Part shown: piece by piece, positions 1-52,500 of the stretch | Position numbering within the stretch: position 1 is the stretch's first letter | Layout: every line of letters begins with the position of its first letter | Assembly (NCBI GenBank): GCA_905178155.1 | Contig: CAJINV010000005.1 | Location: 984,564 to 1,048,563, forward strand | From: Amoebophrya sp. A120 | Lineage: Eukaryota > Protista > Dinoflagellata | Length of the DNA stretch: 64,000 bases | Direction: 5' to 3' | Translations under genes and position numbers: made by a program | The notes under the pieces: model-generated | Database searches by the model: none | What the model was told of the DNA's origin: nothing | Seen by the model: only the letters and a program-made list of their open reading frames with translations

Positions 1-3000
1 TTCTTCGACAAGGGGCACTTCCTGTGTCCCGCGCACCTGCTGTGGCACGAGTTGGTCGAGGACTTGAACTACGGCAACACGCGCGGCCTACTCCAAATGC
101 TGCTGGACGACATGAAGCGCGGGAAGGTGCAGGACCTGACCAGTGCGAGGAAGCTGAAGAACAAGCTGGATCAACATGGGAATGCACCCGGTGGACGAGG
201 TGGACAACCGCGGAGGAATGTATTTTCGCCGAGGAACAACGACTACCTAACATCCGCTGCTGGCGTTACTGGATATAATGATCTTGACCCACAGCAACAA
301 GCAGACAAATCTTCCTTCACCTTCCAAATGAACAATGCCGTTGCCTCCTCCGTGTCCCCGCGCGTTGCCGGCAACCAGCCCTTCCTGGCCGCGGAAGTGT
401 CGGGGCAGTTGTTCGCGGCTTCCGAGGTGTCGCACAAGAACCTCGCGGACTACGTGAAGCAGGATCGCAGAAGAACACGGGAGCTCAGCGGGGACTTGAA
501 GGGCATGTACAACCACCACCGCGAGGGCCAGCACTTCGCGGAGGATTTGAAGGCGATTGGCGTCGACGCGGAGACCGTCGAGCAGCTGGCGAGCGAGGGC
601 TTGTTGCCGGAGAAGGAGGAAGAGGGAGATTTGGTCACGGGGTCGTCCCCGGCCGCTTCTCCCTCGTCGCCCACCGCGGCGGACGATGACCGCAGGTTAG
701 CGAGGCTACTGGCGTCGCCGACGGGTGACACCGCTCCGGCACAGCTGCCGCGCGCCGTCACCCGGCCCATTCACGAAGTGGCTCCGCAGGTTGCGGAGGT
801 TTCCGGCGTCGTGTTGCCGCCACCGCAGCAGGCCGAATTGTCCGGGGTGATTTCCGATCCTCCCCCGCGTGTCGCCGAGCTATCCATGGTGAGTCCGCCA
901 CCGGCAAAACGAACAAAGCCTGTCGGCGCCGCTGCTTTCAAGCGCAAGATGGCCTCGTTCGCTTCCGGCGAGCAGAGCCCAACGTCGCGAGGAAAAGTTC
1001 GCGAAGTATCCGGCGACGGAGTAGATGACATGATGGACCGTTGCCAGCAGCAGCGACGAGAGCCAGATGTTACTAACCCGTTGCCGAACCAGCCAGTCAC
1101 AATACCGACCGCACCCAAGCCGCCGGCGTTCAACAGTTGGCAGCAAAACGAACCCGAGGTGAACGAGATTTCAATGAAGAAGCTGCCAACTATCATGGAA
1201 GAAAGGGACAGGCAAGCGGTTCCGGCGGCAGCCGAACCTGCGCGCGTCGAGGCGCTGAGCTTCGGCCCTACAGTTGCGCAACCCGCGCATCAAGTGGAGG
1301 CGCTGAGTTTTGGCCCGCTCGGGCCCCCGAAGGTGGAGGCGCTGAGTTTCGGCCCAACCACCCTTCCTCCAAAGGTGGAGGCGCTGAGTTACGGTCCGAT
1401 TCCGAAGGCACACGGTGCCTTCCCCTCCGGACTCGCCTCCCCCATGGACATGAGCAACCAGGTGCAGGCCCTGAGCTTCGCTGCCCAACCCGCCTCGCCC
1501 TACGCTGCCGCGGACAGTCTACCAAACGCGGCGGCGCGCACGCCAGTTTATTCCCCAACCGCGTACAAAGTTGGAGATCTTTACGGCAACAATTTCAACA
1601 AGCCCCCGCCCCTAGACCTCTACGATGAGGAGGTGAAGCACCGGCTTTATTTGGAGAGGGAAGCGCTAGAGGAGCGGGTTCGAACCATCCTCACCGGCAT
1701 CATAGAGGCTTGCGCGCAGACGAACTCCGTTTTTCTCCTAGGTCGTCCCTCCGGCGGGAACCGGTTGTCCGAGATTCTGTGCGAGAAGCTGCGCCCCGGG
1801 TGCAACGCGCTGGGGTGTTACACCCTGGACGAGTGCACCACGATCCCCTCCATCGTGTCCCCCAACGTACAGTACAAGTGGCCTACGCAGCGCGAGATCG
1901 AGAACAGCATGTGGAAACACAACTTCCAGGACCCGGCGCGGACGAGGATACCGCAAAAGGTGTTCGAAACGGCTTGCGTGGACGAACGGGAGGAGGTTTA
2001 TGCCGTCGAAAAAACGTACTACCCACTTTTCATATTCATGCAGCAAGTACCAGGCGCGGCTCTCGCCCACAAGGGGCTTTTTGTAGTTTTCTGATAAATT
2101 CACTAAGCAGGATCAGATAGTGGATTGGCGATGTAGCAGCACCAGCTAAGCGCACTAGCTAAGCGCACTAGCTAAGCGCACTAGCTAAGCGCACTAGCTA
2201 AGCGCACTAGCTAAGCGTACTAGCTAAGCGTACGAGCTACGCGCACGAGCTACGCGCACGAGCTACGCGCACTAGCTAAGCGCACTAGCTACGCGCACTA
2301 GCTAAGCGCACTAGCTAAGCGCACTAGCTAAGCGCACTAGCTAAGCGCACTAACTAAGCGCACTAGCTAAGCGCACTAACTGAGCGCACTAGCTCAGCGC
2401 ACTAGCAATCTATGTGTGACTTGTATAGCGAGAGTCACATGATCGTGGCCACGTGGTAAGAACGTTTTTTCGCAGGATGACGTAACCGAAGTAATCAACA
2501 TCCAGTCCGGATTGACGGAGTATGAGAGTACTTGTGTCAAGGACGGCAAAACCATGCTGACGTACGGCGGGTGCATGAAAAACGTGACGCATGTCTTGGT
2601 CTTCGCGACGGACCAGGTATATGATGTTGCTGAGTAGAACATGCACAAGGACAAACAAGGTGATTTTTCACGATCGCGTTATCCCTTTGTAGAATATTGT
2701 CTGAAGTAGAGAAAATAAAGTTGAAATTATCAATCAGGCCCGCAAGAAATTCTGCGAGCTTTTTCTCGAACTTTTCTCGGTCGGCTTGATCGTGGCGGGC
2801 GGAACCGGTCCGATCGCCAAACTCGGGCTGCGCTGCCTCCGCACGGGTTCTCCGCTTATCCTATGTAAAAACATCCCCACCCCAGAGTCAAGATGGGGAT
2901 TTTGCAACACAAACCTTGAAGTTTTGGAAACCACGCATGACAAATTGCAGGCTGTAGTGTAGTGCAGTTTAGCAAGGGAAGCCGCATAACAAATCGATCT

Positions 3001-5822
3001 CCTTATGCTGTTTACAGCATTACAAGTTCCAAAACGCGATTGATAATGCCCCTCATGGGATCGCGCATTACAAACGCTCTCGTGCTTGCAGATCTGCATG
3101 ACAACTCTGTGGTGGGGACGTTTTTACACGGGATACCGCTGTTCATTTTGGAAGGCACGGGCGGTCCGGCCGACGGGTTCGCGGAGCTCATGCGGATTTA
3201 CGAAATGTTCTTTTCCCCGGACGCACTGTACCCCCGCGCGAGTCTGAAGTGGATCCACGAGGAGATCGAGAACCGGTTGACCAAGCGGAACCCTCGGTAC
3301 CACTTCACCTACCACCACTTTTGGACCTTCGCGCGGAACTTCGACGAATCCTTCCGCCACAATTCCGTCATGGTGGTGAATTTATCCTTAGATAACCCGC
3401 AGATGAAGATGCTCCCCGTCGAGCGGCTCCAGGACGAGATCACGCAGGTGATGTCGTCCGTGCACGAAAACTTGGGGGAGATCGGCAATCAAGAATCCGA
3501 GACGCGGGCGATCCAGCACGCGGCCGATTTGTTTGGCGTATTGCTCGACGCGGCGCGAAATTTCCGGTTCGCGGCGACCATTCTGATGACCGTGATCCGC
3601 GTGTTGATTCTCGTCTCCACCACTCTAGCCTTGGCGCAAGTGTGGCTGGAAGCGGCGGAGGACCACCACCCGTTCTTCATGCACAGCAGCGATCCGGGGC
3701 AGGACCGCGCCTGGGCTATTCTCTGGACCCGACGGTTAAACGTGGTACTTCCCTTACTGATCTCCGTCCTCGTCACCTTCAGCGCGAGCTACCGGCCGCT
3801 GCAACGGTTCGTCACCGTTTTCGCCGCGGCGAAACGGATCGAGGGGGAGATTTGGCGGTACCGGGCGCGCGTCGGGGAGTACGTGCCCGTATCGGTGACG
3901 GCGATGAGTTTGAGGAAGAGGAAATCCGCGCGGGAAAACTTCGCGTCCACCGTGGAGGAGATCTGGACCAGCTGCGGGTCCGCGGATTTACGCCTCGGAC
4001 ACTTCTCCCGGTTTTTACCGGATATCTTTTCCTCGGATCGGAACGTGCGCTCCTCCGCGCGGGACGTGCAGGGGCTGCAGTCCTGGAGCAACAATCGGTG
4101 GAGCCGGTCGAGGTCCTGTTTTACCGACGACGGAGATGACCCGCATAACTCCTTCGTCGATCCGCAACGAAACACGAGAAGAAGCTTCGGCCGGTCAAAT
4201 AGCTGGGGAATGAACAAGTTGGGAAAACTTGCCGGAGGCAAGGGCGCGCAATATCAAGACCGGTACGGATACTCTGGTAAAAATCTCGACCCACACGATG
4301 ATTATGGTGGAAGTAGGCGTGAAGCGTTTTACTTCGGAGATGACCAGCACAGCGACCATTCCGGCGACTCGCCTTACCACCACGGCAAAAACCAGGAAGT
4401 AAACAAGCGCAGTAAGTTTTACGGAAAAATGATGACGAACACACGACGCCGGGGCTCCACCGCCGATTTTTTGCTCGATGACAACAAGAAACCTGCCACC
4501 GGCCGGAGTATCAGTTTGAAATTTTTGGAGATGGATAAAGACGATGAAAATAGGTTGAACGCGCCAGTGGTGACGCGGAAGCGGGAATTTTTATCGTACA
4601 AGGCCTGGACGGAGAAGAACCGGGGCCGGGACAAACTTTTGACCGGTGGGGACAAAAACAGTCTCACCTGCTTATCAAGGTGAAAAATGCCCCTACCCCC
4701 GAACGTGGGAGCATTTGTATTGCAAACCTTTCCAAATGAAACATACGCCCTCTTGCATCTTCAGCACCACAGATTTCCAATCGTGAATAGCAAAACTTTG
4801 TATTGCAAAAGACCCCAGCAAAAGTGGCGCTTGTCATGCAAGCGATGCGATACACGCGTAGACTCTGCACCAGAAAGATTCATACTTCTTTCATGCATGA
4901 CAAAAAGTTTGCATCTGGGAACTTCGCATCACAAGTTTTTACGACTTTGGGGGTGGTGGCATTTTTCACTGTAATACTGCTCCGCCGAAGTGTACGTCCG
5001 CGACCGGGTTTTGCCGCAGTTACGGGAGAACGAGCGCATGACGCCGAAGCTGGCGATATGGAATGCAAATATGTCTGGGTCATCTGGAAGAATGCACGTT
5101 TGTCATGCATGTCTGGCATGACTCTTACATCTGTGATGCATGAGCAGGAAAAGGGCCTCGTGCCTGTCATGCAAAAGCGCAGTTTATCATGCGGAAAACG
5201 CAACACTGAGCAGCGCAGACCTTTCTCATGCAAAGCTGTGCATTACAGAGCATTCACGATTCCCAACCAAGTATTACAAGTTTCCAGACCCAGACATATT
5301 TGCAATGCATAGGCGAGACAGCTGTACCAGTTGCAGTTCGCGATCATTGTTTTGAACGCGAGTAACGCCGCGTTGGTGGCATTCGGGGCGGCGGTCTGGG
5401 TGCCGTTGTTACTCGCTCTCGCGTCTTTACTGGAGTACTCGGTAACGTACCAGGCGTTGGAAATGCGGCTGCCGCACATGAACGCCGCGACGAACACGTT
5501 GGTGAAGTTACTTCTCTGGTGGGACGGGCTGACGCGCATCCAGCAGCGGATGCCGGAGAGCAAGGAATTTTTGGTCGATTCGGCGGAAAAAGCGATTTTG
5601 TTACAGCACGACGCGTTCGTCACCGGCGCGCTAGCGTCGCTCCGAGACGCGATCGGGAAGAAGCAGAATCAGAGCAACGACGCAACCGGGGCGGAATTGG
5701 AGGGAAATGGGAATGGGCAGTGGAGAGGAAATTCCTGTGTGCAAGTCGGGAATAGCGGAGGGTTCAAAGGAGGGACGGGTGGGGAGTCGCTAAATCGGAG
5801 CCAGCGGGCGCATAGCATGTAG
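1..5822 (+). CDS. 5'-partial multi-exon gene: low-complexity N-terminus + SLOG/LSDAT (TRPM N-terminal-like) domain + two SLATT-like 2TM domains
   Basis: Frame is open from base 1. GT-AG introns at 2047-2475 and 2617-2737; introners at 2857-3135, 4673-4976 and 5057-5311. The spliced product contains ILTGIIEACAQTNSVFLLG, NVTHVLVF and LIVAGGTGP..RTGSPLFILEGTGGPAD (LSDAT-like), then LPLLISVLVTFSASYRPLQRF..AAKRIEGEIWRYRARVGEY and EVYVRDRVLPQL..LYQLQFAIIV..LLLWWDGLT..LVDSAEKAIL (SLATT-like). Stop at 5820-5822. Confidence 0.75.
2144..2405. repeat. 13-bp tandem repeat (GCTAAGCGCACTA), about 20 copies, intronic
   Basis: Directly visible head-to-tail copies with minor variants (GCTACGCGCACGA), inside intron 2047-2475. 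Confidence 0.95.
2857..3135. mobile_element. Introner, TIR family B (279 bp), TSD CCGCT
   Basis: TATCCTATGTAAAAACATCCCCACC...GGTGGGGACGTTTTTACACGGGATA. CCGCT at 2852-2856 and 3136-3140. Removal gives ..RTGSPLFILEG.. Confidence 0.93.
4673..4976. mobile_element. Introner, TIR family C (304 bp), TSD CTGCT
   Basis: TATCAAGGTGAAAAATGCCCCTACCCCC...GGGGGTGGTGGCATTTTTCACTGTAATA. CTGCT at 4668-4672 and 4977-4981. Removal gives ..SLTCSAEVYVRDR.. Confidence 0.92.
5057..5311. mobile_element. Introner, TIR family A (255 bp), TSD GGCGA
   Basis: TATGGAATGCAAATATGTCTGGGTC...GACCCAGACATATTTGCAATGCATA. GGCGA at 5052-5056 and 5312-5316. Removal gives ..MTPKLARQLYQLQF.. Confidence 0.93.
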
Positions 5823-6311
5823 AATGCATCTTCGAAGTAGATGCGTCTTTTTATTAAAAATATAATTTTTGCGGTCGTTCAATTTCTTGTTGTAAGGTTC
5901 TTGTTTCGAATTTTGTATCTCCATCACGAATGCTGCACTCGCTCCTACGCTTTGTACAATCATAGCTTTTATTGTCATGTCATTACATTGACATTCCGAT
6001 CTTGCATCGACACTAGCAGGAGAATTGGGAAATGGTCACGAACGTGCGCCAAAGCGTCACGCAGCCGGTTGCGCTGTAATGCTTGTGTATATAGGACCGC
6101 ATACTTTTTTCCATTTGATGTCGTGGCGTTCACCTCCGTTGTCTTCGCCTTCGTGTCTGAGCGCCAGAGCTGGTTTGCTTGGATAGAGTATAGTGATGGA
6201 GTGAAGTAAAGAGTGCCTTTGGCTGCAAAGAAAAGCGAGTGCACGAAAGGCTGCTGCTGTCAATGCACTGTCTAGTAGAAGTCTGGCTGTTCAGAAGTTA
6301 AGGAAAAAACG

Positions 6312-9300
6312 ATGACCACCGAAGAGGGGCTCGGCGGCGCAACGCCGTCGGCTTTTCCAGAACCGCTAAGCGTCGTCGACGTGGTTGCCACTGAAGATGT
6401 CACAATTACGGAAGATAGGCCAATCGAAGGCGAGCTTACCCAGGCCGCCGTGTCCGACACCGAGAAGCCGGCAAGTGAAAACCCGGCCAGCGAAATGCCC
6501 ACCGATGCAGCCGGGGCTCTGGGTTTTTGCAAGGAGAACCAGGCCCAGTTTTTGTCTGGTATCACCGTCGCATTGGCCATGATCCCTGAGGCCGTGGCGT
6601 TTTCCTTCGTCGCGAAGGTGGAACCGCCAGTGGCTCTCACGGCAGCCTGGATCATGTGCTTTTTCACCGCCGTAGCGGGCGGCAGGCCAGGTAAAAAAAA
6701 CATTTTGCCACCCGGTCGAGTTCCACGACCAGTGCTCATAAGATAGTTAGGTGCAACATGGGCACCGGGCAAGTTGCAACTCTCGAACCCACTATCACAA
6801 CAAAAAACCAGGTATGATTTCCGGTGCCACCGGTTCCATGGCGGTGATCATGACGTCCATAGTCACTGACGAAGGGGTGGAGTACCTTTTCTGGTATCCT
6901 GTGTAAAAACGTCCCCACCCCAGAGTTGTCATGTAGATTTGCAATTGCAGGAACATTTGTAATGCGCGTCCCCAAGGGAGGCATTTCCAATCGTGTTTTG
7001 GCATTTGTAATGCTGCAAACAGGATAAGCAGATGGATTTGTGATGTGGCTGTCCTTGCTAACATGCACTACACTACGGACTGCAACTTGTCATGCGTGGG
7101 TCCCAAAGCTTCTGGGTTTGTAATGCTACGCTCCCAACTTGACTATGGGGTGGGGACGTTTTTGCATATGATATCTGGGCCGTGATGTTTTGCGGTTTGT
7201 TTCAAATCCTGCTCGGGTTCGCGGGCATCCACAAAGCACTCTCCCTGGTCACCTTCCCTGTCAAGATCGGGTTTCTCAACGGGCTCGCACTGGTGATCGG
7301 GAAGGCGCAGCTGGAATCCTTTTTGATCCCGCACGGGGAGACCACCGAGAAAACCGAGCATTTGGAGATCGTGGACTTCGTGTTGGCGACCAGCAACTAC
7401 GTGAAAGCAGACAAACTGATCGTCATGCTGGTACTAATAGTATAGCAACAGCTAGCTATAGGTTTTTTTCTGGAGAAATTCCGTCATAGCAAGTTTGATG
7501 GTTTCAGCATTCTTGCAATGGTTTCGGCGACAGCAAAACTCTTTTTGTCCTCTTCCTGTGCATTTTTTGCATCTGCTCTTCAAAGAGGATTCATTTTCCT
7601 GTTCCAAGCGAAAGAAGTATCAAACCCGCGGCCTAAAAAATAAGGTCCTTTCCTTCATCGCCCTGGGCATCAACTTTCTTCCCGAAAAGTTTCAAAAATA
7701 CCCCCTCGCGCTTATCTCCATCGTTTTCGTCACCGTCCTGGAGCACGCCTGCGTCCGCACGTTCATTCTGCCGGATGAGGGAACTACGCTCGTGGAGGAC
7801 ATGGCGAATCTGAAAGGGAACTTCCTCGAGGTGGTGTTTAGCAAGTACGACATGCCGAATCCCTTCAACGACGGGGGTGCACTCGCGTCGACGATTCTCA
7901 CCGCGGTTTATTTGTGCGTGATCGGGCTCACCGAGTCCCTGATGACGTTGGAGAAGATCGACGAGATGCTGCCCGACTCCCCGCCCGGAGATGCGAGACG
8001 GGAGGTTTTGGCGCAGGGCGGCGGCAATTTGATCTGTGGGTTCTTCGGGTCCATGGGCGGTTGCGCCATGATCGGGCAGGCCATGATCAACGTGCGGAAT
8101 GGCGGCACGAAGAGGATAGCCGGTATGACGGCCGGTGTGGGCACGCTTCTGATTATGGTGGCCATCAGTCCGGTTATAGGAAAAATTCCGGTTGGCAGTT
8201 TGGTCGGAGTGATGTGGTATAATTTTTTCCAGCTACGAAGATCATCAAGATCACACATCAAGAATTACTATCGCTTCGCATCTAAAATGTCCGAAAACGA
8301 GTACAATTGCACCTCCTACTCATAACAGGTGCGTGTCGTATCACACCTGGGAGAAAAAGACCCACATCCTGTTCTACGAGGCCTTTACGGGCAAGCCCTG
8401 GAAGCCGATTGAAGTATACGTCGTCAGCGAGGAGGCCGTGACCCCCGCGGTGGAGTCTCCCGCAACGACCGAAGGCGGAAATAGAAATCAGCTGCTGCCG
8501 CCGGGCGGCGATAATGTGGTGCGGGTGATCTCCGTCAGCAAGGAGGCACTGGCGCAAGCCGACGTAGGCCGATCGGGCTCCAAGGACCCACCCCCAGCGG
8601 ACGACTCGTTTGGGCAACCGCCCAGGTCCCAGCCCAGTAAGGAAACGGTCGGCAGCAAAGGATCGGAAATATCATCATGTACAGATAGATATTTTTTTGG
8701 GTACCGATTTTTTTTTGTTGTACTACAAATACAAACAGAATTATGAGGAGTATAGCAGGTATGCTGGTTCTTGTTTGTTCTTCGATTGCGACAGCGGCGC
8801 ACGTGAACAAAATCGAATGCACAATGAATTCTACTACCAAAATGCAAAAATAGACTCCGCCGGCGGCACGCGCGTGGTCCGCAAGCGGTCCAAGGGACAC
8901 TACCACCACGGCGTCGCGGGCGAGCAGAGTCCCGCGGCTAAGCGCGAAGACATCGTTTCGCATTTGGACAACGTGGTCGTCACCCCGGCGGCGCTGCGGG
9001 ACCGATCGCGGCTGTCCAAGGAAGAAGCGGAGGACGTTATCGAAAGGAAAAAGCCCCCCTCCCCGTATCAAACCGGAACTTCTGGCGCTGGATTTGCGTA
9101 CACAGATCAGCTTTGTCTTGCTGGAGAGGACTGCTGGCCCATATCAAGCCTTTGTAGGGAGATTTTGGCCTAGGCGCTTAGAATGAGAAACGTCTGCGCT
9201 GTAGGCTCACCAGCATCACAAACCCCCTGCGTAAATGCGGCGGCGCCTGTGGAGTTGCCTTCTTGCAAGACAGAGATGGTTTGTGGTCGACAATCAGCAT

Positions 9301-10158
9301 TGCAAATCTTCTGCGGCGTGCCTTTTCGATATTGGGAGGGGGAGTTTTTCCTTTTGATAGACGTGCAGCTCGGTTTGGCGGAGCTTTCCCGCTTCGACTG
9401 CTTCATCGTGGTAGTGGTCACCATCGGGTATGAATTGCAAAAATGTCTGGGTCTGGAAGATTCTGACAGTTGTCACGCACGTTTTGCATGAGCCATGATG
9501 TCTGTGATGCATATACTAGCAATACAGATTGTTTGAGGGCTTCTTGATGCCTATTCCGCATCACAAATGCCTTCTCATCGTAGCAAAAATTGCATTCCCT
9601 TCGCTACTCATGCAATACAGATTTTTTTGGAATCCAAAGGCAGCATCACAAGTTGCAATCTTCCAGACCCAGACATATTTGCAATGCATATCGGGACGCT
9701 GATTACCAATCTCGCCATCGCGGTCGCGGCGGGAATCGTGATGTCGAAGCTCATATCCTAAGTAAAAACGTCCCCACCTCAGAGTTGTCACGCAAACTCT
9801 GCTGGCTGAAAATATTTCTCATTGCGGAGCTCCTCGAGAAGCATTTTCTAGTCGTGTTTCGTAGTTTGTCATGCTTTAAAAATCAGCATTATATGCTAGA
9901 TCTGTGATGCTGCTGAACTACCTGAGCAGCATTACACTACGAGGCCAAACTTGTCATGTGCAACAGCCAAAGCTGGTTGATTTGTCTAGCAGATATCTCA
10001 TCTTGATTCTGGTGTGGGGACGCCTTTACTCAGGATAGCTCAACAGCTTGTACCTGCAAAAGTACGGCGACGACAAGCCCGCCCCGGCGGACGCGAGTAC
10101 GAAGCCAGCGGTGGGCACACCCGTGGCGCAGGACCCGGAATCGCTGGCGCCGAATTGA
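6312..10158 (+). CDS. SulP/SLC26 family anion (sulfate/bicarbonate) transporter, multi-exon
   Basis: [90 protein letters not shown] and [10 protein letters not shown] are SulP motifs. Four GT-AG introns and four introners. Stop TGA at 10156-10158. Confidence 0.9.
6895..7173. mobile_element. Introner, family B (279 bp), TSD TCTGG, opposite orientation to 2857-3135
   Basis: TATCCTGTGTAAAAACGTCCCCACCCCA...TGGGGTGGGGACGTTTTTGCATATGATA. Removal gives ..EYLFWAVMFCG.. Confidence 0.93.
9038..9359. mobile_element. Introner, family D (322 bp), TSD GACGT
   Basis: TATCGAAAGGAAAAAGCCCCCCTCCCC...GGGAGGGGGAGTTTTTCCTTTTGATA. Removal gives ..[13 protein letters not shown].. Confidence 0.92.
9429..9690. mobile_element. 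Introner, family A (262 bp), TSD TCGGG
   Basis: TATGAATTGCAAAAATGTCTGGGTCTGGAAGA...TCTTCCAGACCCAGACATATTTGCAATGCATA. Removal gives ..[13 protein letters not shown].. Confidence 0.94.
9754..10037. mobile_element. Introner, family B (284 bp), TSD GCTCA
   Basis: TATCCTAAGTAAAAACGTCCCCAC...GTGGGGACGCCTTTACTCAGGATA. Removal gives ..[12 protein letters not shown].. Confidence 0.92.
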
Positions 10159-11275: not shown

Positions 11276-14200
11276 ATGTGTGCTTCATCTTTTCGACTTT
11301 ACTGCGCTTTGGTAACAGCATTTCACCGTCTCGCTCTGTTCCCGAGGAGCATCAGCGGTAGTTCTTTGAGATTACGAAAAAATGCCGGCCATCCGTCCGA
11401 GCAGAAGAAACCTATACCCAGGTCGTTGTCCTTTTTGTCCTCGAATAAACGCACGTCAAATCGCAACCGACCGCACCAGGACAAACCTCGGGGGCGGGCC
11501 CTACTAGAGCATAAGGAAAATATTAAGGGGCCGCTCGACGATGTGGCTAGGTTTTTTGGATTGCACGGAGGAGAAGACGAAAACTTCAAGCGCAAGCCTT
11601 GGAAGGTGTCCCAAATCGCCTGGGGAGAGCCCGGTGACGCGACGTGTCCCCCCGGGTCGGATATGCATTGCAAATATGTCTGGGTCTGGAATGTTGCCGG
11701 GTTTGTTATGCATGTTTTGCATGACCCAGGATGTCTGTAGTGCACGATCTAGCATCACAGATTTTTAGAGGGCTTCCTGATGCCTACTTCGCATGACAAA
11801 TGCCTTCCCCGCGTAGCACAAACTAGACTCCTCTTGCTGGTCTTGCAATACAGATTTTTTCAGAGTCCAATGTTAGCATCACAAGTTCCAACCTTCCAGA
11901 CCCAGACACTTTTGCATTTGATATCGGAACCGCTGGACGAGCGGTCGTGCGGGGATGCAGTGTACCTGATGCTCGACCACCTTATCAAAGTGAAAAATCC
12001 CCCCTCCCCAATTGAAACGAAGTTTGTGATGCTGGACTTCCGTACACAAATCAGATTTGTCTTGCTGGAGAGGACTGCGGGCCCATATCAAACCTGAGTA
12101 GGGAGATTTTGGTCTACACATTTAGCATGAGAAGCGTCCGTGCTGTAGGCTCAGCAGCATCACAAACCGCCTGCATAGCGCGGCGGAACCTGTGGGGCTG
12201 CCTGCTTGCGAGACAGAGATGATGATGATGATGTTACCCAGTAAAGGGTTTAGGGTGTTGAAGAACTAAAATATTCCTCAGCGTCGTGCTGCTCCTCAGG
12301 ACGTTCTCCTTCGTCGCAACGTCTGCGGCCACGTTTCTTCAACTTGCGCCGTGCCTGGTGCGATCTCATCGCCCCCACAATCCATCCCAGTTTGCGCAGC
12401 GGCTGTCCTTCGTCGGGGGTGTGAAATGTGGCGTCGTCGTGTTGAAGCTCGTACTTGTACACCTTGCAGTGCGGGCGCCGGATATGCTGCGCCCCCGCTC
12501 GGTCCGTGTAGAGGGATTCACGGGGCAGATGGTAAGCCCACGCCGAGGCACCGCCTCCGTAGGTGTACTTCGCTTCCGTCCTGTTCCAGCCATGATTTGT
12601 GGTCGCAAATCAGCATCACATGCCTTTTCGATATGGGGAGGGGGAATTTTTCCTCGTGATACACCTGCAGCTTTCGCACCAACGCTGGCCGGTGATCTCC
12701 TCCCGGGACTTCGTGGGACGTGGCCCCGATTCTGCGGGGTATTGGCGCGGGGAGTTGGGGTGGGAAAACCGCTGCGCTGGGGATGGAGAAAGGCGTTGCG
12801 GGGTGCATAACAAGAACTTGCCGTTCTACGGCGAGAAGCTGTGGGGCTTCCATAATTTGCCTGTGGGCTGCAGCGTACAGAGCACGGGGCGGGACCCGGA
12901 GGTGGACGTGCCGGGGACGCACGTGTGCGGCCCGTTAGATCACCAGTGGAGAATATCCCACAGAATAAAGAGACAGGCAGGCCATAAGTATTTGTGATGC
13001 AAAAAAGGAAAAAATGAAAGTATCATCTCTCTGGCGTGTCAGAAGCAGCATAGGGACGACGCCCATGACAGATCTTTCTGTTTAAAGTAATTTGTTTCTG
13101 CACGGTAAACATCAAGTATGCCAGGCCTGCTCTATTTCTGCGGGATAGAGGATGCCGCATTATCGCGACCCGAGTTACCGGGTGCCGCCGGACTGGTACC
13201 AGGTACCGGAAGAGGAGATGCACCTTGATAGTGAAATGCTCCTTCAATTTCAAGGTGTGAGAAGAGAAAGCGACGCTTGCCGCGAATGGCGCAGTGCCTA
13301 TATCCCGGTTTGCCGCCGATTGGAGGACATAAACGACAGTGTTTCAGAGGACGAGATTGCGGATCTTCCAGCTTCCTGGACCACGCCTCCAGTCGCGCCG
13401 CAGACGATAGACGAACTAGCTTGGGGCGAGCCGGGGGACGCCGACTGCCCGCAAGGGTCACACCCCCTGGAAGAGTCGTCTTGCGCGGTGGCCGTTGCGC
13501 TGCTACGCGAATACCATGATTGGACAACGAATATTCCCGGGCGCGTGCCGGCAGGATATACCGCGACCCCGAGGTTCCACACGACTAGCGATCTGACGTG
13601 GCCGGAACTCAGTAAAGAGGCTAGCATTAACAACCAACAGGACGGTCGGTACAATTTTAACGGCACTTCGTGTTCGAACGTCACCGCCGGTTTTAACGCT
13701 TTTATCCTACCTCACCTCGGAATCGAGTTTGCGCTTAGCGATAGCGAAATTGCGCGGGTGATAAACAGCGCCTGCCCGGTAAACGTGAACGTGCCGTTCA
13801 ATCCCGGCAGCACTCTAATTGTGTCACTCCCGGAAAGCCTCAGTAAGCTGCCGAATCCACACGAGCTGTATGACATGTATCGGGCTCGGCATAAAAACTG
13901 GACAAATGCTGAACCGTGGATGAAGTTAGCGGATGCCACAACTGGGTGGCAGAAGCAATGGGATTGGTATAATGTTCCCCTGGGTTGCAGCATCCAGTCC
14001 TCGGGCCGGGAGGTGGAACAGCAGACGCCGGACTCGCACCCCTGCGGAGCTAGCTTCACCCCGAATCGCGAGGCGCACTGGCGAGACGGCGAGGTTCCCT
14101 CGGACTGGCACGAGCCAAACGGTGCCTGTCGCGCGTGGCGCAGCATCTACATGCCGGTTTGCCGCCGCGACCGGCCGGACTCGTGGACGCCACCGGAAAA

Positions 14201-18310: not shown

Positions 18311-18410
18311 NNNNNNNNNNNNNNNNNNNNNNNNNNNNNNNNNNNNNNNNNNNNNNNNNNNNNNNNNNNNNNNNNNNNNNNNNNNNNNNNNNNNNNNNNN
18401 NNNNNNNNNN
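18311..18410. other. Assembly gap (100 N)
   Basis: Run of exactly 100 N. Confidence 1.
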
Positions 18411-22753: not shown

Positions 22754-22817
22754 TCGCTGCAAGGAATACATCACTACCGTTCGCGTGATAAATTCGCATG
22801 AAAATTTCTAGAGAAGC

Positions 22818-23749: not shown

Positions 23750-23846
23750 TTCGATACTACGCTTTGGGATGGCATGCCACGGTAGAAATTCGCTCCAAAT
23801 GAGAAGTTGTCGGCGTGCGCATCCTGTCCGGTGATTTTCGCGTGCG

Positions 23847-27561: not shown

Positions 27562-28750
27562 ATGGCCGCCACCGTCGGCACACTCGGCAGTGACGTGGTC
27601 GGCGTCATCTCGCCCGGGACCGAGGTGCAGATCGAGGGGTTGCAAAACGCGGCGCACTTGAACTATCAAATGCAAAAATGTCTGGGTCTGGAAACTTGTG
27701 ATGCCGCATGGCAACTCAAGAGAACGCCAGAAATGACGGCTTAGCATGACAGGTTTTTGATTCGCTAGGTGTTGCCTATTCTGCATGAGAAACTGGGTTT
27801 TTGCCTCCCACAAAAGCGGCGCTTTTGGGTACCTTGCATGACAGTCATGCTAGCAGAGCATGACTTTCCAGACCCAGATATATTTGCAATGCATATGAGC
27901 GGGTTGAAGGCGATTGTGGTGGAATACGACCAGGACAATAACCGGTACAAAGTCCTATGAACTGCAAAAGTATCGTACTCGTATAAATGCATTACAAATT
28001 TTCTCAGCATGGGAAATCAAATTTGTCATGCTGATTTACCTTAAGAAAAATATTTGTAATGCAAGACTTGCAGTTATACGAGTGCGATACTTTTGCACAG
28101 GATAAGTCCACGTCGAGGACGATTCGAACATTGCTCTGCGCGCGCAGAACTTCCGAATCCTGTCCGTTGCCGCGGCCCCGGACGTGGTCATTGGCCAAGC
28201 GAGTTCTCCGAACCCAGGAGTGCGGCTGAGTCAGCAATCTGGGAGTCCTGCGAATGCGTCATCGTTGTCGATCAATGTGCCGCCGCCCACAACGGTAAAC
28301 CAGCAGTCGACGGTGACCTCCATCTTGTCCCGGCGGGACAGCTATCAACTGCAAACATGTCTGGGTCTGGAAGATCGCCACGCTTGTCATGCATATTCGG
28401 CATGACCAAGGATGTCTGTAATGCATGCCCTAGCTGCATCAGAAATTTTTACAGGGCTTCCTAATGCCTATTCCGCGTGACAAATGCCATCCCCGCGTAG
28501 CACAAACTGGACTCCTCTTGCTGGTCATGCGATGCAAATGTTTTTAGAATCCAAAGCTAGCATCACAAGTCCGAACTTTCCAGACCCAGGCATATTTGTA
28601 ATGCATAACAGCGAGGACGCGCTGTTTCACAAGCTTGGCTGGACCGATTACGTGTTGTGTGGCGAGTTTCCTTTGTTCACGAAGTCGCTGGTGATTGGGG
28701 GGCTGTGGATGTTTTTGGTAACCATGCTTCTCATCTACGCGCCGCGGTAG
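27562..28750 (+). CDS. Small protein with a VxIxGL..LNG..RYxV (SH3/KOW-like beta-barrel) module and a C-terminal TM
   Basis: After removing three introners: PGTEVQIEGLQNAAHLNGLKAIVVEYDQDNNRYKVHVEDDSNIALRAQNFRIL...SLVIGGLWMFLVTMLLIYAPR*. Confidence 0.8.
27664..27895. mobile_element. Introner, family A (232 bp), TSD TGAAC/TGAGC
   Basis: TATCAAATGCAAAAATGTCTGGGTCTGGAAA...TTTCCAGACCCAGATATATTTGCAATGCATA. Removal gives HLNGLKA. Confidence 0.92.
27956..28104. mobile_element. Introner, family E (149 bp), TSD AGTCC
   Basis: TATGAACTGCAAAAGTATCGTACTCGTATAA...TTATACGAGTGCGATACTTTTGCACAGGATA. Removal gives RYKVHVEDD. Confidence 0.92.
28343..28607. mobile_element. Introner, family A (265 bp), TSD ACAGC
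   Basis: TATCAACTGCAAACATGTCTGGGTCTGGAA...TTCCAGACCCAGGCATATTTGTAATGCATA. Removal gives RRDSEDALF. Confidence 0.93.
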
Positions 28751-29454: not shown

Positions 29455-30773
29455 ATGGTCGTCGTGCCGCGGTTCGACCCAGCGGCGCTTGGCAAGAAGA
29501 AGCGAAAGCGGGATGAAAATAAACTTGACGTTGACAGCGCTGCAGCAGAACAGTTCGTGGCTGCTGCTGCTGTTCCAATAAAAGAACCTGCTATCGGAGC
29601 GGATAATCCGGAACCCGGTTTCGAGAAGAAGAAAAAAAAGAAGAAGCGAAAAACTGAAGTAGAAGAATCTACTGTCCTCGGAGTTGTGGATCATGCTGTC
29701 GAAGCACCATCACTGGAAAAAGCCGAAGCAGGTACAACACGACCGGGAAATAAAGCGACAGTAGACGATAAAATAAATTCTGCGAGTACAATAGAACCAG
29801 GCTTCGCGAAGGAGAAGAAAAAAATTTCCGCATCAGCTAGTAAAACTTCAGCTGGACCTGCAGTATCCCCCAGAAAAAGACCGACAGGTCATATTTGTAA
29901 TGCAAAAATAAATAGACAAAAAAATATGTATTGCGTGCCCTAAACAGGATGTTATGGCCTCGCCCATGACAGATTTTCCTGTGTATTTATTTTTGCATTA
30001 CAAATATGACCTGTCGGTCTTTTTCTGTGGGATATGCAGGCCCAAGTGAACAAGATGTCAAGCCGAAGTTGAACCGGTGGAAAGTGAACCCCAAATTCGC
30101 GTTCTCCTACCGCAAGAACGAATCTACTGCGGCGTTGCCAGCGACAGTAGAAGAAGAAAAAAGGAAAAATAATGCTGAGGCTCATGGAACAAAAGATGCC
30201 GTCTCAACAGCAGCAGCAGCAGCAGCAGCAGAGGAGGATGATTCTAATGCGGCCGCCAAGGACGAAGCGGAAGCAGACGCAGACGCAGATGCGCCCGCAC
30301 CTGGAGTTGAAGATGATGAAAATATTTTCGAGGAAGTAGAGCAACAACCTGCATTCGTTCCCGATGTGAACGACTGGCTGGCCTCGTTGGGCGCCGCAGC
30401 AAAGCAACCTGGAACTCTAGCGGCAGGAAAAACTACCTTTGATGCTGCTTCATCATCCACTGACGGAACCAAGCACACCTCTGCCGACGGTTCGACGAGA
30501 GCGACAAAACGAGAACTCACCCCCGAGGAAAGAGAGCTCCTGCTCAAGCCCTGGCTCAGCTGGCCGAAAGTGCAAGATGTCGACAAGCCTTTCAAAAAGC
30601 CAATATTGCCTTTCTGCCGAACCGAATCGAGCAAGGAAATGTGGGACCGATGGCGGCTTTTGCAACCGGCGAGGGAGAAGGATATAAAAGAAAAATGGAA
30701 GCAGACAAAGCGGCTCCACGCAAAAATGATGGAAAACAGATGCGTGGAGCGCGGGATGTACAAAAGATCATGA
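29455..30773 (+). CDS. Lys/Glu-rich, probably nuclear/nucleolar hypothetical protein
   Basis: Two ORFs (29455-29943 and 30006-30773) joined in frame by removing introner 29864-30034. Poly-K NLS-like tracts. C-terminal FCRTES..W..KDIKEKWKQTKR is weakly reminiscent of NOL8-type C-termini (tentative). Confidence 0.7.
29864..30034. mobile_element. Introner, family F (171 bp), almost entirely a hairpin, TSD TGCAG
   Basis: TATCCCCCAGAAAAAGACCGACAGGTCATATTTGTAATGCAAAAATAAATA.. is mirrored at the right end (over 50 bp near-perfect IR). Removal gives AGPAGPSEQD. Confidence 0.95.
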
Positions 30774-35410: not shown

Positions 35411-38400
35411 ATGGCGGACGAATACGACCGGCATACCGTCCAGGAGGATCCTGGAGGACAGCAGGAGCAGGATGTCGAACAACGGATATCCCAACCCGAG
35501 GAGTCGCCTGTCAGAAAATCGCTGGAAGCGAAGATGCAGGACGAGAAGCGGAACCTCGTGAACCGGCTGAAATCCCTCCACCATCGGTTCGTTTTTTGGT
35601 TTTGCGCCACCTTCGCGGTAAACCTTTCCGTTGCGATTTTCACGCTTTTAATCTGGTCCCACATCGGCTACGGTGCCAGCAGCTACCGGTGGGCGATGAA
35701 GCAAACGACGGTTGGGTTTTTCTTGTGGTACGGCGGGTTTTTCGTGTTATTTCTACTCTACCTGTTGGACTTCTTCACAGCGCCTTACGTGACGAAACCC
35801 AGCCGGTCCGAGGTGCAAGCTCTCATCGCGGAGGAGCGAGCAACCGGGACGAGCAGCATACTGGATGAAGAGGCACTGAAACAAGCGGCGGAGCTAGCGG
35901 AAAAGAACAAACAAGAAGCTCCTGCTGCTTCACCGCAAATATTACCCAGCGCGGCGCCACCAATTCCAGAAGTGGTGGTCGAGGGCGAGCACAAGTCGGA
36001 GGCACCACCCGACAGCTCCGTTCCGGCGGTTCCCGCTGCAGCGCCCGCAACTAGTCCCCTGCCGTCTATCGCAACGCCGAAGATGGTCACGCTCGCCCCC
36101 CGGGAGGAGCCCCCCGCCCTTCCGAATTCCGAGTCCACTTCGACCGTCCGGCATCTGGTCTGGGGGAACAGACCCGGCGAGGTGAACGAGTACGGGACGT
36201 TTTTCCTGCGGTTTGTGTTCATCATAACCGGCTGCATGGCGTTGTGTTGGGGCGTCACGGCAACAGCCAGGTATCCGCACTACCCGGTCATGATCATGCT
36301 CATCATGCTCGCGTTGCTGCAGGTCATGGCCAGGTACAAGTTCCGACCGAAGCAGACCAAGCAGCACGACTTTGCGAAACGGCACAAGGGGCAGTCGGTG
36401 ATCCGCGTCATTGCCTCGTCCATCCACGACCCGCACCGAAGGTACGAGGCGGTGATGGAGGTGTTAACCAGGCATTTGCTCGTGGCGCACGACAAACTTT
36501 TGTACTACAAGGCTTTCGCGATCTCCACGCTTCTCACCGCCATGCTGGTTTTTAACATTTGGCTCCATTGGGCGTTTATCGGCGAGAAGAAGTACTGGGG
36601 CGCGGAGGTGCGGGAGGAAATGGTCGCAGACGGCGTGCAGCCGGAGGAAGAGTACGATGTGACGGAGAATCAGGCGTTTAACATGCAGTTCAACATCTGG
36701 GCGGCGCCGGTCCTGTTCTGCGTCGGCCTGGCGCTGCTGTTCGGGTTGCTGTCCCTGCGGGCGTATCTGCACATCCGGTACACGAAGACAGACGACCTGC
36801 TCACGGAGATTTCCCGGTCGGTCGCCTCCGTGGACCACGAGCTCGGGGACAGCATTCTGGGCGTCGGAAACATGGACGCGTTGGTGGAGACGGTGAAAAT
36901 TTGCGTCTGCGGGTTGTTCGCCACCGCGTTGACGTTTTGGGTGGCGGCGGAGGTGGGGGTCGGGGCGAGCAGCTCGGCCTTGGACATTTCCACCACGGTC
37001 CGGACGTTCATCGCCGCGTTGCTCTTCGCTTTCGTGGTCATCATCGCCGCGACCATGCGAAGATTGTACGCCCAGATGCTGGAGCACATGTGGAAGAACC
37101 CCTTTCTGAAGATCACGATCTCCGCGCTGCAGTCCGACTGGCTGAAAGCGTTGTTCTTGCTTTTGTTCTGTATCAAATGCAAAAATGTCTGGGTCTGGAA
37201 GAATGTATGTTTGTCATGCTTGTCTGGCATGACTCTTAAATCTGTCATGCATGTTACCCAAGAGCCCCACTTTTCTGTCATGCAGAAACGCAGTTTGTCA
37301 TGCAGAAACAGGCAACACCAAGAAGCTCAAAAACTTGTCATGCTGGGCCAGCTCTTGTGGCCTCCTCATGATACGCCACCCAGCATCACAAATTTCCAGG
37401 CCCAGACATCTTTGCATTTGATATTCTGGTGGATGCTGCCATTTTACTACTTAATCAGCGCGCTGAACAAGCTGGTGCGGGTATCCTATTTGAAAACGTC
37501 CCCACCCCATAGTTGTAATGCAAATCTGCATGCTGAAAATGTTTCTTATGCGGAGCCCCATGAGAAGCATTTTCTAATCGTGTTTTGCAATTTGTCATGC
37601 TCCAACCAGCATGGTATGTTAGATCTGTGATGCTGCTTAGATAGCTCAAACAGCACTACACTACGAGTCCAAATTTGTCATGCAAAACAGCCAAAGCTTG
37701 TGGATTTGTGTAGCCGATTCCCCATCTTGACTATGCTGTGGGGATGTTTTTACTCAGGATAGCGGGATTGCCGAGGGGTGTCGGATCAACAGTACTACGA
37801 CCCTGAGAAGACGTTTTTCCTCCCGGACCCGTGGCACAGCAGGTGCACGAAAGCCTGCAGCGCGCAGCTCGGGCATGTCGCGCAGTGGAACAAAACGAGC
37901 GTGATATCGAAGTATTTAACAAATGGAAATAATGTTTTTCATGCTAGTTTTCTTTTCGTGTGGTTCTATTTTGCCTTGCACCTGCTGCCTCTCGTGATAG
38001 TTTGGCATGAGCCTGACCCTTTCACGACGGTACATTGATAAAAATCAAAACAGTGGACAAAAATAACGCCTGTACTACTTCGATCAGGGCCTACGTCTGG
38101 GCGCTCGCCGTGTTCACCCTCAACGTCGGCTGTACCAAGGGACTGAACCTCGGTCTGATCGGTCTGGGCGAGGTTCTCAGCGGGAAGCCGGCGTACCAGA
38201 TCCTGATTGTGTGGTACATCGCCGGGTTGGTCGGGTTCTTGCTCCCCCCAGTCCCCGGCCCACCGGTTTATCTCTTCGGCGGCTTGGTCGTCGTTGGCGC
38301 GTTTGAGAAGGAATTTGAGGACCCGGATACGGGGTTTTGGCTCGGGTTGGCAATCACCTCCGTCGTCGCGTTGATTCTAAAATTGAACGCCTGCGCGATG

Positions 38401-41978: not shown

Positions 41979-42014
<36 letters not shown>

Positions 42015-48298: not shown

Positions 48299-49543
48299 GT
48301 TGAGTCTACCCATTTCATTTGTCCCTGTATGAACAAAAGCATCTTCGTACTACAAGGCTAGCGGAAATTTTCCTGTCGTGCGCTGCCTGCAAACACGCAG
48401 TTTAGATTCATGTTGTTCGCGAAAACGAGACAGAGCAGTCGGTTTTTGAAAGTCTACACCCTGAGTGACACCAGTTAGTACTGAAATATACGCGAAAAGA
48501 AAATTTCGGTCCGTTCAGTGAACAAGATTCTGCAAGGAGGTCCGACAGAGCTGTTGAGCATTCGTGTGTGATAACGCGCATGGAAAGGAAATTATTCATA
48601 GTGCGGGTTTATTCATCTGGATGATATATTTTTTTGCAAAAGAAACTTGCATTCTTCTTCCGCCGTTGCTACCTCGATGTTGACTAAGCTCCTAAAAGAA
48701 CACGCAATCAAATTGTAACTGTAGTGAAAGTACTTAGAAGTGAGCATCGGTGCTGTACCATCGTGCAAATTACACCGAGTAACAGTTTCACCACTTCGGT
48801 CTCGTGCAAGAAAACCATGGACGCAGAAGAAACTTGACAGGCAGAGCTCCGTGGCAGTATTAATTCGTGTGCCGCGGAGCAGCTGCGAGGAGAACATCCA
48901 TCGTGCGCGTTGATAAGAACAGTAGTCAGACTAATCGTACCAGTCGGTCACATCGTACACGAAAGACAGAACTCTGAAGACTATACGTGCCTGTAGATGT
49001 CGTCCTCGACATTTGGTAGCTCCAGCTTCCGCAGGAATCTAACGTCCACCATTGCCGGCTCGGTAGTACGCAGCAAAATTTTTTCCATGTTTACTCTCTT
49101 CTCCAAAACGCTACCAGCTCATGGCTTTTCACCCCCAATATTTCTTTGATACCAATTTTGAATGATTTTCATTCGCCCCTCAACCTTACCAATTCTTTCG
49201 ATTAGTTTACCGCATTTATTGTTCTATGTGTCACACGTCTGACGGAGGTCGAGCGCCAGAGGCGGGCGGACGAGGCGATTAGCGAACTAGGTTACTCGAC
49301 CTGATTTGTTCCACTCTTGTTCTTGCAAGAACCTCCAAGTGTCACTCAGAAATTTCCCCCGGTTTTATTCCTATAAACCACGACCTTGATTATCTTCCTA
49401 TCACTCCAACACTGGTCTATTTACCACACTTTATTTCCGTGAATAAGCCACCTTTATCGTGCAGCAGAAGCTGAGCCTGGACTCCGTTCGTTCGCGACGA
49501 CTTCTTCTCGGTGAAAACCTGCTACCTCGACGTGTCCGCAGGA

Positions 49544-52500
49544 ATGGCGGGGGCAGCCACCGAGGAGCGGGTGGACAGCAAGGAGGCCCCGGAGAATGTG
49601 GAGGCCAAGGCCCCGGCCGGCTCGCAGCCGGGGAGCGGGATAAAGATCGACCCGAATTTGCCCTTCGACGACCAGTGGCAGAGCTCCGACCCGGAGATAT
49701 TGCGGTTCGTCCCGCCAGACGTGTCCGAAGAAGCGGATGCCGCCAAGGACCGGTCCGGGCTGCAGAAACCAAAAAACATTTTCGCGCCGAGAAAGATCTC
49801 CCTGGAACTCGGGTTTTTCCGAAGGTTATTCTCCATTCTGAACTCCCGGTTCGGCGATGCGCAGGGCGAATTGTCGACCGCGCACTTCGAGCGGACCATG
49901 TTGCGCATGTTCAAAATCATCGGGTCCACCGGCGAGGAGAGAGAAGGAAAGACGTTCAACGCCGAGGAGTACGACGTGGATGGCAGTGGTATGATGATTT
50001 TTTGCACTACAGACCGATTGTAGAAGTTGTCATGCTGTTTGCCGTATTTTTACAACCTGAAATTTATTCTTGATAGTTGAAACTTGCGATGTTGATGTTC
50101 AGTTTGTGATTCCGATGCGGTTTGCGCGCAGTGCAAATTGGGTGGAATGGTTTTCCACCGATTTGCGATACGGCAACTACATGCCAATCACCCAAAATAA
50201 AACAGGCGCCGTGGGCTGGTGGGAGTTCGTTTCCTGCTGGAAAAGCAATGACTTCCACATCACCTGTACCTGGTCGGAAAGGATCTGGCTGTCGATAGAG
50301 GTATTTCATTAAGGGAAGGATTCTATAAATTTTTGTTGCTAGTAGTTGCAAATTTCTCTTGCCCTTTGTCATGCTTGACTTCCACCTAGTAGGGTTGAAC
50401 AATCTATGGATGAAGATAATGCGAAAGTCAACCGATAATTGCCATACCCACTAAACAGGATTCCTCATCGTGCCGGATCGCTCAGTGGGTGCAGACGACG
50501 GTGATGATCATGATTATCGTTTCCTCCACCTGTTTTATGATTGCCACCCTCCCGGACTTGAAGAAGTCCCCCGGGCAGTGTACCCCCCGGTGCGACAACA
50601 TCGACACCAGCACCGCCTACGAGGAGTTCGAGTGGTGCAAGCGGGAGTGCGAGCCGCAGCAGGCGGACATCTTCTGGACGCTGGAGCTGATTTGCGTGGT
50701 GATCTTCACCGTGGAGTACGGCGTCAGAATATGCTGCTTCCCGTTTGCGCGAGCGGAATTGTTCTCCTCGGATATCCTCCTCGACATGTGCCTCGGAGAT
50801 TTACCCATCGCTTTCCAGTCCTCCAGGCAGCGGCTGTTCAATTTCTTCTTTTCCCCACCGAATCTCGTCGATTTCTTCGCCATCGTGCCCTTCTACTTCG
50901 AGGTGATATTGGAGGGTGTGATGGAAATCCAGGGAACGGCGGTGTTGCGGGTCATCCGGTTGACCAGATATGAAATCCAAAAATGTCTGGGTCTGGAAAC
51001 TTGTGATGCAAGTCAGTCAATAACAAATGCACTGTAATGCGCCGCCAAGCATGACGATGACAAGTTGCCTCGTGCTTGTGTGCTGCGTATTCCGCATGAG
51101 AAACTGCGTTTTTGCATGACAGGCGAGAGAGGCTGTCTGTGTCGTCGAAACCGGAGTCGAAAACCGGAGTAAGAGGGGCCGTCGGACCGGGGAATCGCTT
51201 GCTGGTTAATATGTATGCGTGACAAGCTGGCTGCGTTTTGCATTCGTGGCAGTCCAGGAAAGAGAAAGAACTAGTGAAGCGATCGGATCGACGAGGTGCG
51301 TCAGGGGGCGTCACTCATTCATTCATTCATTCATTCATTCATTCTGTGGCCACACAATACAGATTTAAGGGCCATGCTAGATCAGCATGACAAATCTCGC
51401 AATCTTCCAGACCCAGACATTTTTGCATGTGATACCAGGTTGTTCCGGTTGATGAAGGCCGTGAAGTATTTCGAAACGCTGCAGATCATCGGGCGTGTGC
51501 TGCGGAGAAGTATGCAGGCGTTAACGGTGCTGCTGTTCTACCTAACCCTGTGCGTCTGCTTCTCCGCGTCCTTGCTTTACTTTGCGGAGAGCGGCGACTG
51601 GGATCCAGCACAGGAGGAGTAAAAACTTTTGATTGCTTTGTTCTGTAGCGGTACTAGCGCAAGAAGTCATGACAAGGAAGTGTGTTCGTTGCTGTTGTAC
51701 CACCGAAGATGATCTGCATGACTGAACGTATAACAAAAATAAAACTACTAGAGCTTGTTACTGTCTTCCAAAATCCTTTCCCCAGGTGGATGCGAACCAA
51801 CTGGATCAACAATGGACGCGAGCCTACTCCGTTCAAGTCCATTCCGCATAGTTTCTGGTGGTGCTTCGTGACGTACACGACGGTCGGGTACGGTGATATG
51901 GTGCCGTACTCTTCGCTCGGACAGATGTTCGGTGTCGCAACCATTTTAGTCGGCCTGCTCGTGCTGGCCATGCCCATTTCGGTGTTGTCAAGTAACTTCG
52001 GCGAGGTGTGGCGAGAAAACCAGGAAGAAATGAGATTGCAGGCGAAAAGCGACGAGATTGTATTGCATATTCTATATTATTAACATGAGAAAACATCATT
52101 AGTGACACTTCACCTTATTTCATTCCACTTTTTTGCCTGTAGTGCTGAATTCGATTTGCATGGCGATGGCCTGTCGTATAAAGTGACCGTGATGTCCACG
52201 TATGCAGAAAACAAAAACTATTAATGTCAATCAAGAAAAATGTAAACTAAAACAGGAACGGGAGGCAGTGGAATCTGCGTTGGCCATCAAGGACCCCGCA
52301 GAGCAGCTGAAGAGGGTATTGATCGAGCTCTACGATGAGGACGCACTGGGCGAACGCGACTTCCTGGGCGAGTGCCAGATCGAATACGAGAAAATAGGCC
52401 TCAGTCCGGATTTGTGCGGCGAGATCAAATTCGATACAATAGAGGTATGGGATAAAATTTTCAGAAAATTTCGGATCCTTTTATTCATGAATGACAGCGA

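What the first reader, a model, noticed from the sequence alone, without database searches (positions are those of the whole stretch)
2857..51434. All six TIR families share one terminal grammar: TAT-N7-A-tract plus a 5-bp TSD
Seen, left ends aligned: A TATGAATTGC-AAAAA, B TATCCTATGT-AAAAA, C TATCAAGGTG-AAAAA, D TATCGAAAGG-AAAAA, E TATGAACTGC-AAAAG, F TATCCCCCAG-AAAAA. Positions 4-10 and everything after 15 differ by family, but TAT (1-3) and the A-tract (11-15, one helical turn away) recur. Inference: one transposase type recognises a bipartite end. I do not recognise TAT termini with a 5-bp TSD as the signature of a standard eukaryotic DNA-transposon superfamily (Transib has a 5-bp TSD but CAC ends). 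No transposase is encoded in this window.
Basis: partly seen in the sequence, partly recalled or inferred. Interest (0 to 1): 0.85.

Follow-up and report, generated by a model that had tools for sequence, protein, structure and literature searches.

The report
Known Amoebophrya transposon-derived non-canonical introns
These are short mobile DNA elements sitting inside the genes of a marine parasitic dinoflagellate, and they are missing from its transcripts as if they were introns; their shared end pattern is real but was published in 2021.

Summary
The pattern is real and already published. The window holds 16 inverted-repeat elements in six families. All 32 ends start TAT, 31 of 32 have AAA at 11-13, and 14 of 16 have an exact 5-bp flanking repeat. 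RNA-like contigs lack six tested elements plus exactly one repeat copy each, and the rebuilt protein equals a deposited Amoebophrya sp. A120 protein. Farhat 2021 describes A120 introner ends as TAT, seven variable bases, at least three As. Gozashti 2025 lists one A120 family as '5-bp TSD, TA/TA termini' with integrase-like homology.

Corrections: the A-tract is absent in 4 of 18 clusters of a larger sample, positions beyond 15 are partly shared, and TA termini do occur in IS3EU/GingerRoot (6-bp TSD).

Two extras were not found in what I read. An internal motif TGTNATGC occurs in 17 of 18 clusters. Mismatches between the two repeat copies lean synonymous (21 of 34), a modest hint that both copies reach the mRNA. 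No transposase was found.

The parts
2857..3135 (.). Family B element, 279 bp, repeat CCGCT/CCGCT, in a + strand reading frame
   Evidence: removal from RNA not directly shown
4673..4976 (.). Family C element, 304 bp, repeat CTGCT
   Evidence: absent with one repeat copy from X1 contig 1
5057..5311 (.). Family A element, 255 bp, repeat GGCGA
   Evidence: absent with one repeat copy from X1 contig 1
6312..10158 (+). Host sulfate-permease (SulP) gene interrupted by four elements and four canonical introns; gene ends read from the sequence
   Evidence: Pfam PF00916; spliced model equals deposited protein P0001, 685 aa
6895..7173 (.). Family B element, 279 bp, repeat TCTGG
9038..9359 (.). Family D element, 322 bp, repeat GACGT
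9429..9690 (.). Family A element, 262 bp, repeat TCGGG; ends pair in the predicted RNA fold (z -8.6)
9754..10037 (.). Family B element, 284 bp, repeat GCTCA
11662..11923 (.). Family A element, 262 bp, repeat TCGGA
   Evidence: removal from RNA not shown
11983..12661 (.). Family D element, 679 bp, repeat CACCT, lengthened by a nested insert at about 12220-12594
27664..27895 (.). Family A element, 232 bp, repeat copies differ at position 4 (TGAAC/TGAGC; Asn versus Ser codon)
27956..28104 (.). Family E element, 149 bp, repeat AGTCC
28343..28607 (.). Family A element, 265 bp, repeat ACAGC
29864..30034 (.). Family F element, 171 bp, 66-nt inverted arms, repeat TGCAG
37171..37423 (.). Family A element, 253 bp, repeat TTCTG
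37482..37761 (.). Family B element, 280 bp, repeat GCGGG
50969..51434 (.). Family A element, 466 bp with nested insert, in an ion-channel gene; repeat copies differ at position 5 (CCAGA/CCAGG, both Arg)

Best explanation
These are Amoebophrya A120-type introner elements: short inverted-repeat elements with TAT ends and a 5-bp flanking duplication that lie in coding exons, are missing together with one duplication copy from RNA-like contigs (six tested), and were likely spread by a still unidentified cut-and-paste transposase. Shown: anatomy, exonic position, precise absence from the contigs, no need for GT or AG, both orientations. Inferred: a DDE transposase encoded elsewhere or now lost makes a 5-bp staggered cut with a mild C...G target preference. 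It is probably integrase-like (IS3EU/GingerRoot/Ginger neighbourhood; about 0.55) and probably reads TAT plus the internal TGTNATGC repeats rather than the A-tract alone. Predicted: on the pre-mRNA the inverted repeats pair and bring the two duplication copies together, and the exons are joined somewhere within the 5 bases, which restores the original sequence. The splicing enzyme is unknown.
For: [quoted passage not shown] S19 legend; A120 fam38 annotated 'Ginger; 5-bp TSD, TA/TA Termini' (PMC12130899 supplement file 8 row 580). Organism: a window exon is 100% identical over 189 aa to a protein named Amoebophrya sp. A120; the A25 protein is 78% identical. Removal: models lacking each element plus one repeat copy give 2334 and 2541 nt, equal to the spans in X1 contigs 1 and 2, and translate to P0001 exactly (685 of 685 aa). 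Homologues align without gaps at the four SulP junctions. X5 contigs run from the flanks into the elements, so that DNA-like run keeps them. 219 of 228 confidently framed elements carry an in-frame stop. On the sense strand the base before TAT is G in 61 of 182 and the base after ATA is G in 42 of 182. 56 of 114 framed family A copies are reversed relative to the others. Ends pair in folds, z -8.6 and -4.9.
Against: No transposase in the window and no autonomous candidate among 9 TAT pairs of 340 bp or more (longest 1104 bp). Farhat 2021 found none in A120 and argued against general transposase-driven mobilisation. X1 is only guessed to be RNA, though it also skips four canonical introns. Only 6 of 16 elements were tested against RNA, none from families E or F. 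Hairpins flanked by direct repeats can give false introns by reverse-transcriptase switching (recalled, no call).
Confidence: 0.88

Rival explanations
1. Ordinary MITEs of several unrelated superfamilies whose ends converged because the host splicing step selects for TAT ends and hairpins.
For: Families share no full-length homology. Gozashti 2025 assigns A120 introners to several transposon classes. TAT preceded by G resembles a GTAT donor.
Against: One duplication length (5 bp in 258 of 328; 4 bp 2, 6 bp 0, 7 bp 0) and one internal motif in 17 of 18 clusters point to a common mobilising enzyme. G before TAT is no commoner than its mirror, C after ATA (61 versus 65 of 182).
Confidence: 0.12
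2. The elements are removed by a relaxed spliceosome at a fixed register, so one duplication copy is purely intronic.
For: Nearly all spliceosome proteins are present in A120 (PMC7789003 section 10). With two-mismatch cases included, 27 of 52 synonymous changes is compatible with one free copy (P 0.13). At 27664 the left copy gives an HLNG motif that I recall as conserved (not tested).
Against: No conserved dinucleotide in any of six registers. Single mismatches are synonymous in 21 of 34 against at most 0.43 expected with one free copy (P 0.02). Both orientations occur.
Confidence: 0.35
3. The apparent splicing is a reverse-transcriptase template-switch artefact, or excision happens in DNA.
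For: The hairpin plus direct repeat layout favours switching (recalled). Evidence is assembled contigs only.
Against: Retention would put a stop in 219 of 228 framed cases. Homologues are collinear across junctions. DNA-like contigs keep the elements.
Confidence: 0.04

Closest known systems
Amoebophrya sp. A120 introner elements (Farhat et al. 2021, PMC7789003)
   Same: TAT-N7-AAA ends, inverted plus direct repeats, about 240 nt, non-canonical introns, no transposase; the window gene equals an A120 protein.
   Different: The paper gives direct repeats of 3-5 nt in variable positions; here they resolve to a fixed 5 bp abutting the ends. The internal TGTNATGC motif and A-tract-less families were not found in the sections read.
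A120 introner family 38 (Gozashti et al. 2025, PMC12130899)
   Same: Listed with 5-bp TSD and TA/TA termini, inverted repeats.
   Different: About 810 bp with homology to Copia/Gypsy elements; the window's elements are 149-322 bp (two longer through nested inserts) and non-coding. Its sequence was not compared here.
IS3EU/GingerRoot DNA transposons
   Same: TA..TA termini (TAYGG..CCRTA in rust fungi), GC-rich targets.
   Different: 6-bp TSD there, 5-bp here (0 of 328 with 6 bp); no transposase to compare; intron behaviour not mentioned in the passages read.
Euglenid nonconventional introns and Fritillaria non-canonical introns (review PMC11282704)
   Same: Inverted repeats bring intron ends together; duplication-like repeats at borders.
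   Different: Other lineages and end motifs; Fritillaria has preferred AG-AC/AG-AT borders.
hAT5 and Transib (5-bp TSD)
   Same: 5-bp duplication (hAT5 mentioned).
   Different: Transib's group has CA..TG ends in most cases; hAT5 ends not checked; no transposase.

Membership tests
Amoebophrya A120 introner elements | Ends TAT-N7-(3 or more A) | tested here: met
   32 of 32 TAT; 31 of 32 AAA at 11-13; definition
Amoebophrya A120 introner elements | Inverted repeats plus 3-5 nt direct repeats at exon/intron borders | tested here: met
   14 of 16 exact 5-bp repeats, 2 with one mismatch
Amoebophrya A120 introner elements | Removed from transcripts without GT-AG | tested here: met
   6 of 16 tested, all 6 absent with one repeat copy; no shared dinucleotide. 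X1 is RNA by inference.
Amoebophrya A120 introner elements | Repeated in the genome | tested here: met
   Up to 7 copies per family in the window; X5 summed depth of about 4,000-200,000 in bins over elements against about 20 in unique bins (not a copy number)
Amoebophrya A120 introner elements | Host is Amoebophrya A120 | tested here: met
   P0001 identical, named A120 by its source
IS3EU/GingerRoot | TA..TA termini | tested here: met
   definition
IS3EU/GingerRoot | 6-bp target duplication | tested here: not met
   0 of 328 exact 6-bp, 258 exact 5-bp
IS3EU/GingerRoot | Integrase-like DDE transposase of that clade | not testable with these tools
   No autonomous copy found; whole genome not held
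Ginger1/Ginger2 | TG..CA termini | tested here: not met
   TAT at both ends in 328 of 370 full-length copies; TGT at one end in 4 rows shown; definition
Transib / CMCT group | CA..TG termini | tested here: not met
   definition
hAT5 | 5-bp duplication | tested here: met
   hAT5 named
hAT5 | hAT transposase and hAT-type ends | not tested
   No transposase available; hAT5 ends not looked up

The most novel reading that the evidence does not exclude
The TAT-ended A120 introners are the non-autonomous offspring of one undescribed 5-bp-TSD lineage of integrase-like (IS3EU/GingerRoot-related) transposons that reads TAT plus TGTNATGC boxes spaced three helical turns apart. They are cut out of RNA by a signal-free, hairpin-guided reaction whose cut floats within the 5-bp duplication, so that both copies encode protein.
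Probability: 0.25. Interest if true: 0.75.

Novelty: already known. Interest (0 to 1): 0.28.

Why it matters
The end pattern itself adds nothing to the 2021 description. The system is still unusual: tens of thousands of introns without splice signals, in a genome where U1 snRNA was not detected, with neither the splicing mechanism nor the transposase known. Two by-products sharpen those open questions. Elements with mismatched repeat copies let existing RNA reads show where the cut falls. The internal motif shared by nearly all families is a better candidate binding site than the A-tract.

Tried and rejected
That sample is heavy in family A, and I cannot say whether it is the same strain. The same motif found 0 matches in viral contigs. 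A search for the integrase family PF00665 in 20 of those loci could not run because their records are not held.

No RNA holder is on record. Raw-read runs X7 and X8 did not cover host exons (638 and 2 reads, all partial) and gave no evidence.

Open-frame length after removing 0, 3, 4, 5, 6 or 7 extra bases was too noisy to score. The idea that N-TAT acts as a GTAT donor and ATA-N as an AG acceptor together predicts 3 extra bases per element (81 and 131 nt at two junction groups); observed 75 and 122, so rejected. G enrichment at those positions was not found. Removed length divisible by 3 was 10 of 16 in the window but only 126 of 328 overall, so not pursued.

Homologue searches at the two mismatched elements failed: query too short, no hit at E 1e-15. 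Earlier scan notes: none. Paper searches for later work on the splicing mechanism, IS3EU with a 5-bp TSD and the internal motif listed nothing relevant; one search showed 15 of 144 papers.
Full report
Observation. The six quoted ends are in the window. A scan for inverted repeats with flanking direct repeats, making no assumption about TAT, gave 26 hits, of which 14 are TAT-ended elements with an exact 5-bp repeat. A similarity scan added two whose repeat copies differ by one base. The 16 elements fall into six groups: A 7, B 4, D 2, and C, E, F one each. TAT is at 32 of 32 ends, AAA at 11-13 in 31, AAAAA in 19. Only 23 of the other roughly 1010 TAT sites in the window have AAA there. Pfam found no transposase in 137 reading frames of 125 aa or more.

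They are introns. Removing each element plus one repeat copy leaves a stop-free + strand frame across all 16 junctions. That is weak alone in GC-rich DNA, but a codon model also chose + for 14 of the 14 window elements it examined. Contigs of run X1, which is RNA by inference because it also skips four canonical introns, match models lacking six elements to the base: 2334 and 2541 nt. The SulP model translates to deposited protein P0001 exactly, and its source names it Amoebophrya sp. A120. Homologues align without gaps at the four junctions, so the repeat is a duplication of pre-existing coding sequence. The DNA-like run X5 keeps the elements and shows very high summed depth over them. Ten of the 16 elements were not tested against RNA.

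It is in print. Farhat et al. 2021 (PMC7789003; I read the abstract, passages, sections 10, 11, 12, 16 and supplement legends, not the figures) state that A120 inverted-repeat motifs start with TAT, then seven less-conserved bases, then at least three As. They count 29,850 such introners in 1954 families. The Fig. S19 legend shows 5-bp direct repeats. They found no transposase in A120, did not detect U1 snRNA, and left the intron border unresolved. Gozashti et al. 2025 (PMC12130899; section 6, passages, and all 58 A120 rows of supplement file 8; files 13 and 14 not searched, figures unseen) list family 38 as 'Ginger, 5-bp TSD, TA/TA Termini' with Copia/Gypsy-like homology but without Ginger ends. 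IS3EU/GingerRoot have TA..TA ends with a 6-bp duplication (passages of PMC10045372, PMC12730594, PMC6839031). I saw passages of the review PMC11282704. Roy et al. 2023 was not read. Unseen figures and supplements may already show the extras below.

Wider sample. A metagenome scan gave 156 loci, biased to family A. Without assuming TAT, 235 of 453 hits were TAT with a 5-bp repeat. Of the rest, 123 lay outside those elements and by eye were mostly offsets within or between TAT elements. Homology search gave 370 full-length copies (356 metagenome, 14 window); 42 without TAT at both ends were dropped, leaving 328. Exact repeats were 5 bp in 258, 4 bp in 2, 6 or 7 bp in none; 46 had one mismatch, 15 two, 9 three or more. 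These form 18 clusters, of which four (31 elements) have AAA at 11-13 in 0 of 62 ends. The A-tract is therefore common, not required. The internal motif TGTNATGC occurs 1012 times against 24 in shuffles, in 17 of 18 clusters including those four. It starts mostly 33-45 nt from an end and recurs at 31-33 nt. No autonomous copy appeared: nine TAT pairs of 340 bp or more, longest 1104 bp, longest frame 238 aa, not scanned against Pfam.

How it likely works. Insertion: a cut-and-paste transposase makes a 5-bp staggered cut. Targets lean to C at position 1 and G at position 5, mirror-symmetric. An integrase-like enzyme is my best guess from the TA ends and family 38, but it is untested. Removal: no register gives shared splice dinucleotides, G is not required beside either end, and 219 of 228 framed elements (228 of 328 passed the frame filter) would add a stop if kept. 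Both orientations occur. The ends pair in predicted folds, which would place the two repeat copies side by side. The varied splice-site dinucleotides reported for these introns probably reflect, in part, the six equivalent registers within the repeat (inference; the family 2 counts are dominated by NT starts and AN ends).

Where is the cut? If one repeat copy were purely intronic, at most about 0.43 of mismatches between copies should be synonymous (neutral share 0.27). Observed: 21 of 34 single mismatches in confidently framed cases (P 0.02), 27 of 46 without the frame filter (P 0.025), but 27 of 52 when two-mismatch cases are added (P 0.13). This is suggestive only: frames are predicted, the sample is small, and the loci come from a metagenome assembly. 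Direct reads over mismatched repeats were not obtained.

Verdict. A real, well-seen pattern that is the published signature of A120 introners. Already known; interest 0.28, resting on the open splicing and transposase questions and the two small leads.

Noticed in passing
all elements; e.g. window 6895-7173: Internal motif TGTNATGC repeated at about 31-33 nt spacing in 17 of 18 clusters; 55 copies in 3.8 kb of element interior against 11 in 59 kb outside.
   Followed up: yes
window about 12220-12594: Insert nested in the family D element, ending in a (CAT)n tail on the - strand, like the 3' end of a non-LTR retroelement; a 33-nt piece of it drew over 400 partial reads from run X7.
   Followed up: partly
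window about 51130-51345: Insert nested in the family A element at 50969, ending in a (CATT)n tail.
   Followed up: no
L076 3769-4799: A family B element (4097-4376) nested inside a family A element.
   Followed up: no
metagenome loci, e.g. L003 2024-2252, L003 4095-4336, L017 7128-7435, L049 1475-1727: Four TAT-ended families without the A-tract, absent from the window.
   Followed up: partly
L056 2011-2333; L068 2096-2825: Inverted-repeat candidates that do not start with TAT, possibly other element types.
   Followed up: no
328-element set: The first base of the repeat falls on codon position 3 in 112 of 228 framed cases, probably through the C...G target preference.
   Followed up: partly
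window 6691-6811, 8217-8328, 8679-8853 and introns near 49990-52950: Several canonical introns have a T-run shortly after GT and an A-run before AG, the reverse of the elements' polarity (seen by eye).
   Followed up: no
window about 2145-2407: Tandem array of an 11-bp unit upstream of the first element (seen).
   Followed up: no
window 18311-18410: Assembly gap of 100 N.
   Followed up: no
whole window: All reading frames with Pfam hits are on the + strand (SulP, CorA/MRS2-like with EF-hand, 60S acidic ribosomal protein, ion channel with C2 domain, ubiquitin-conjugating domain), as in the co-oriented gene blocks described for Amoebophrya.
   Followed up: no
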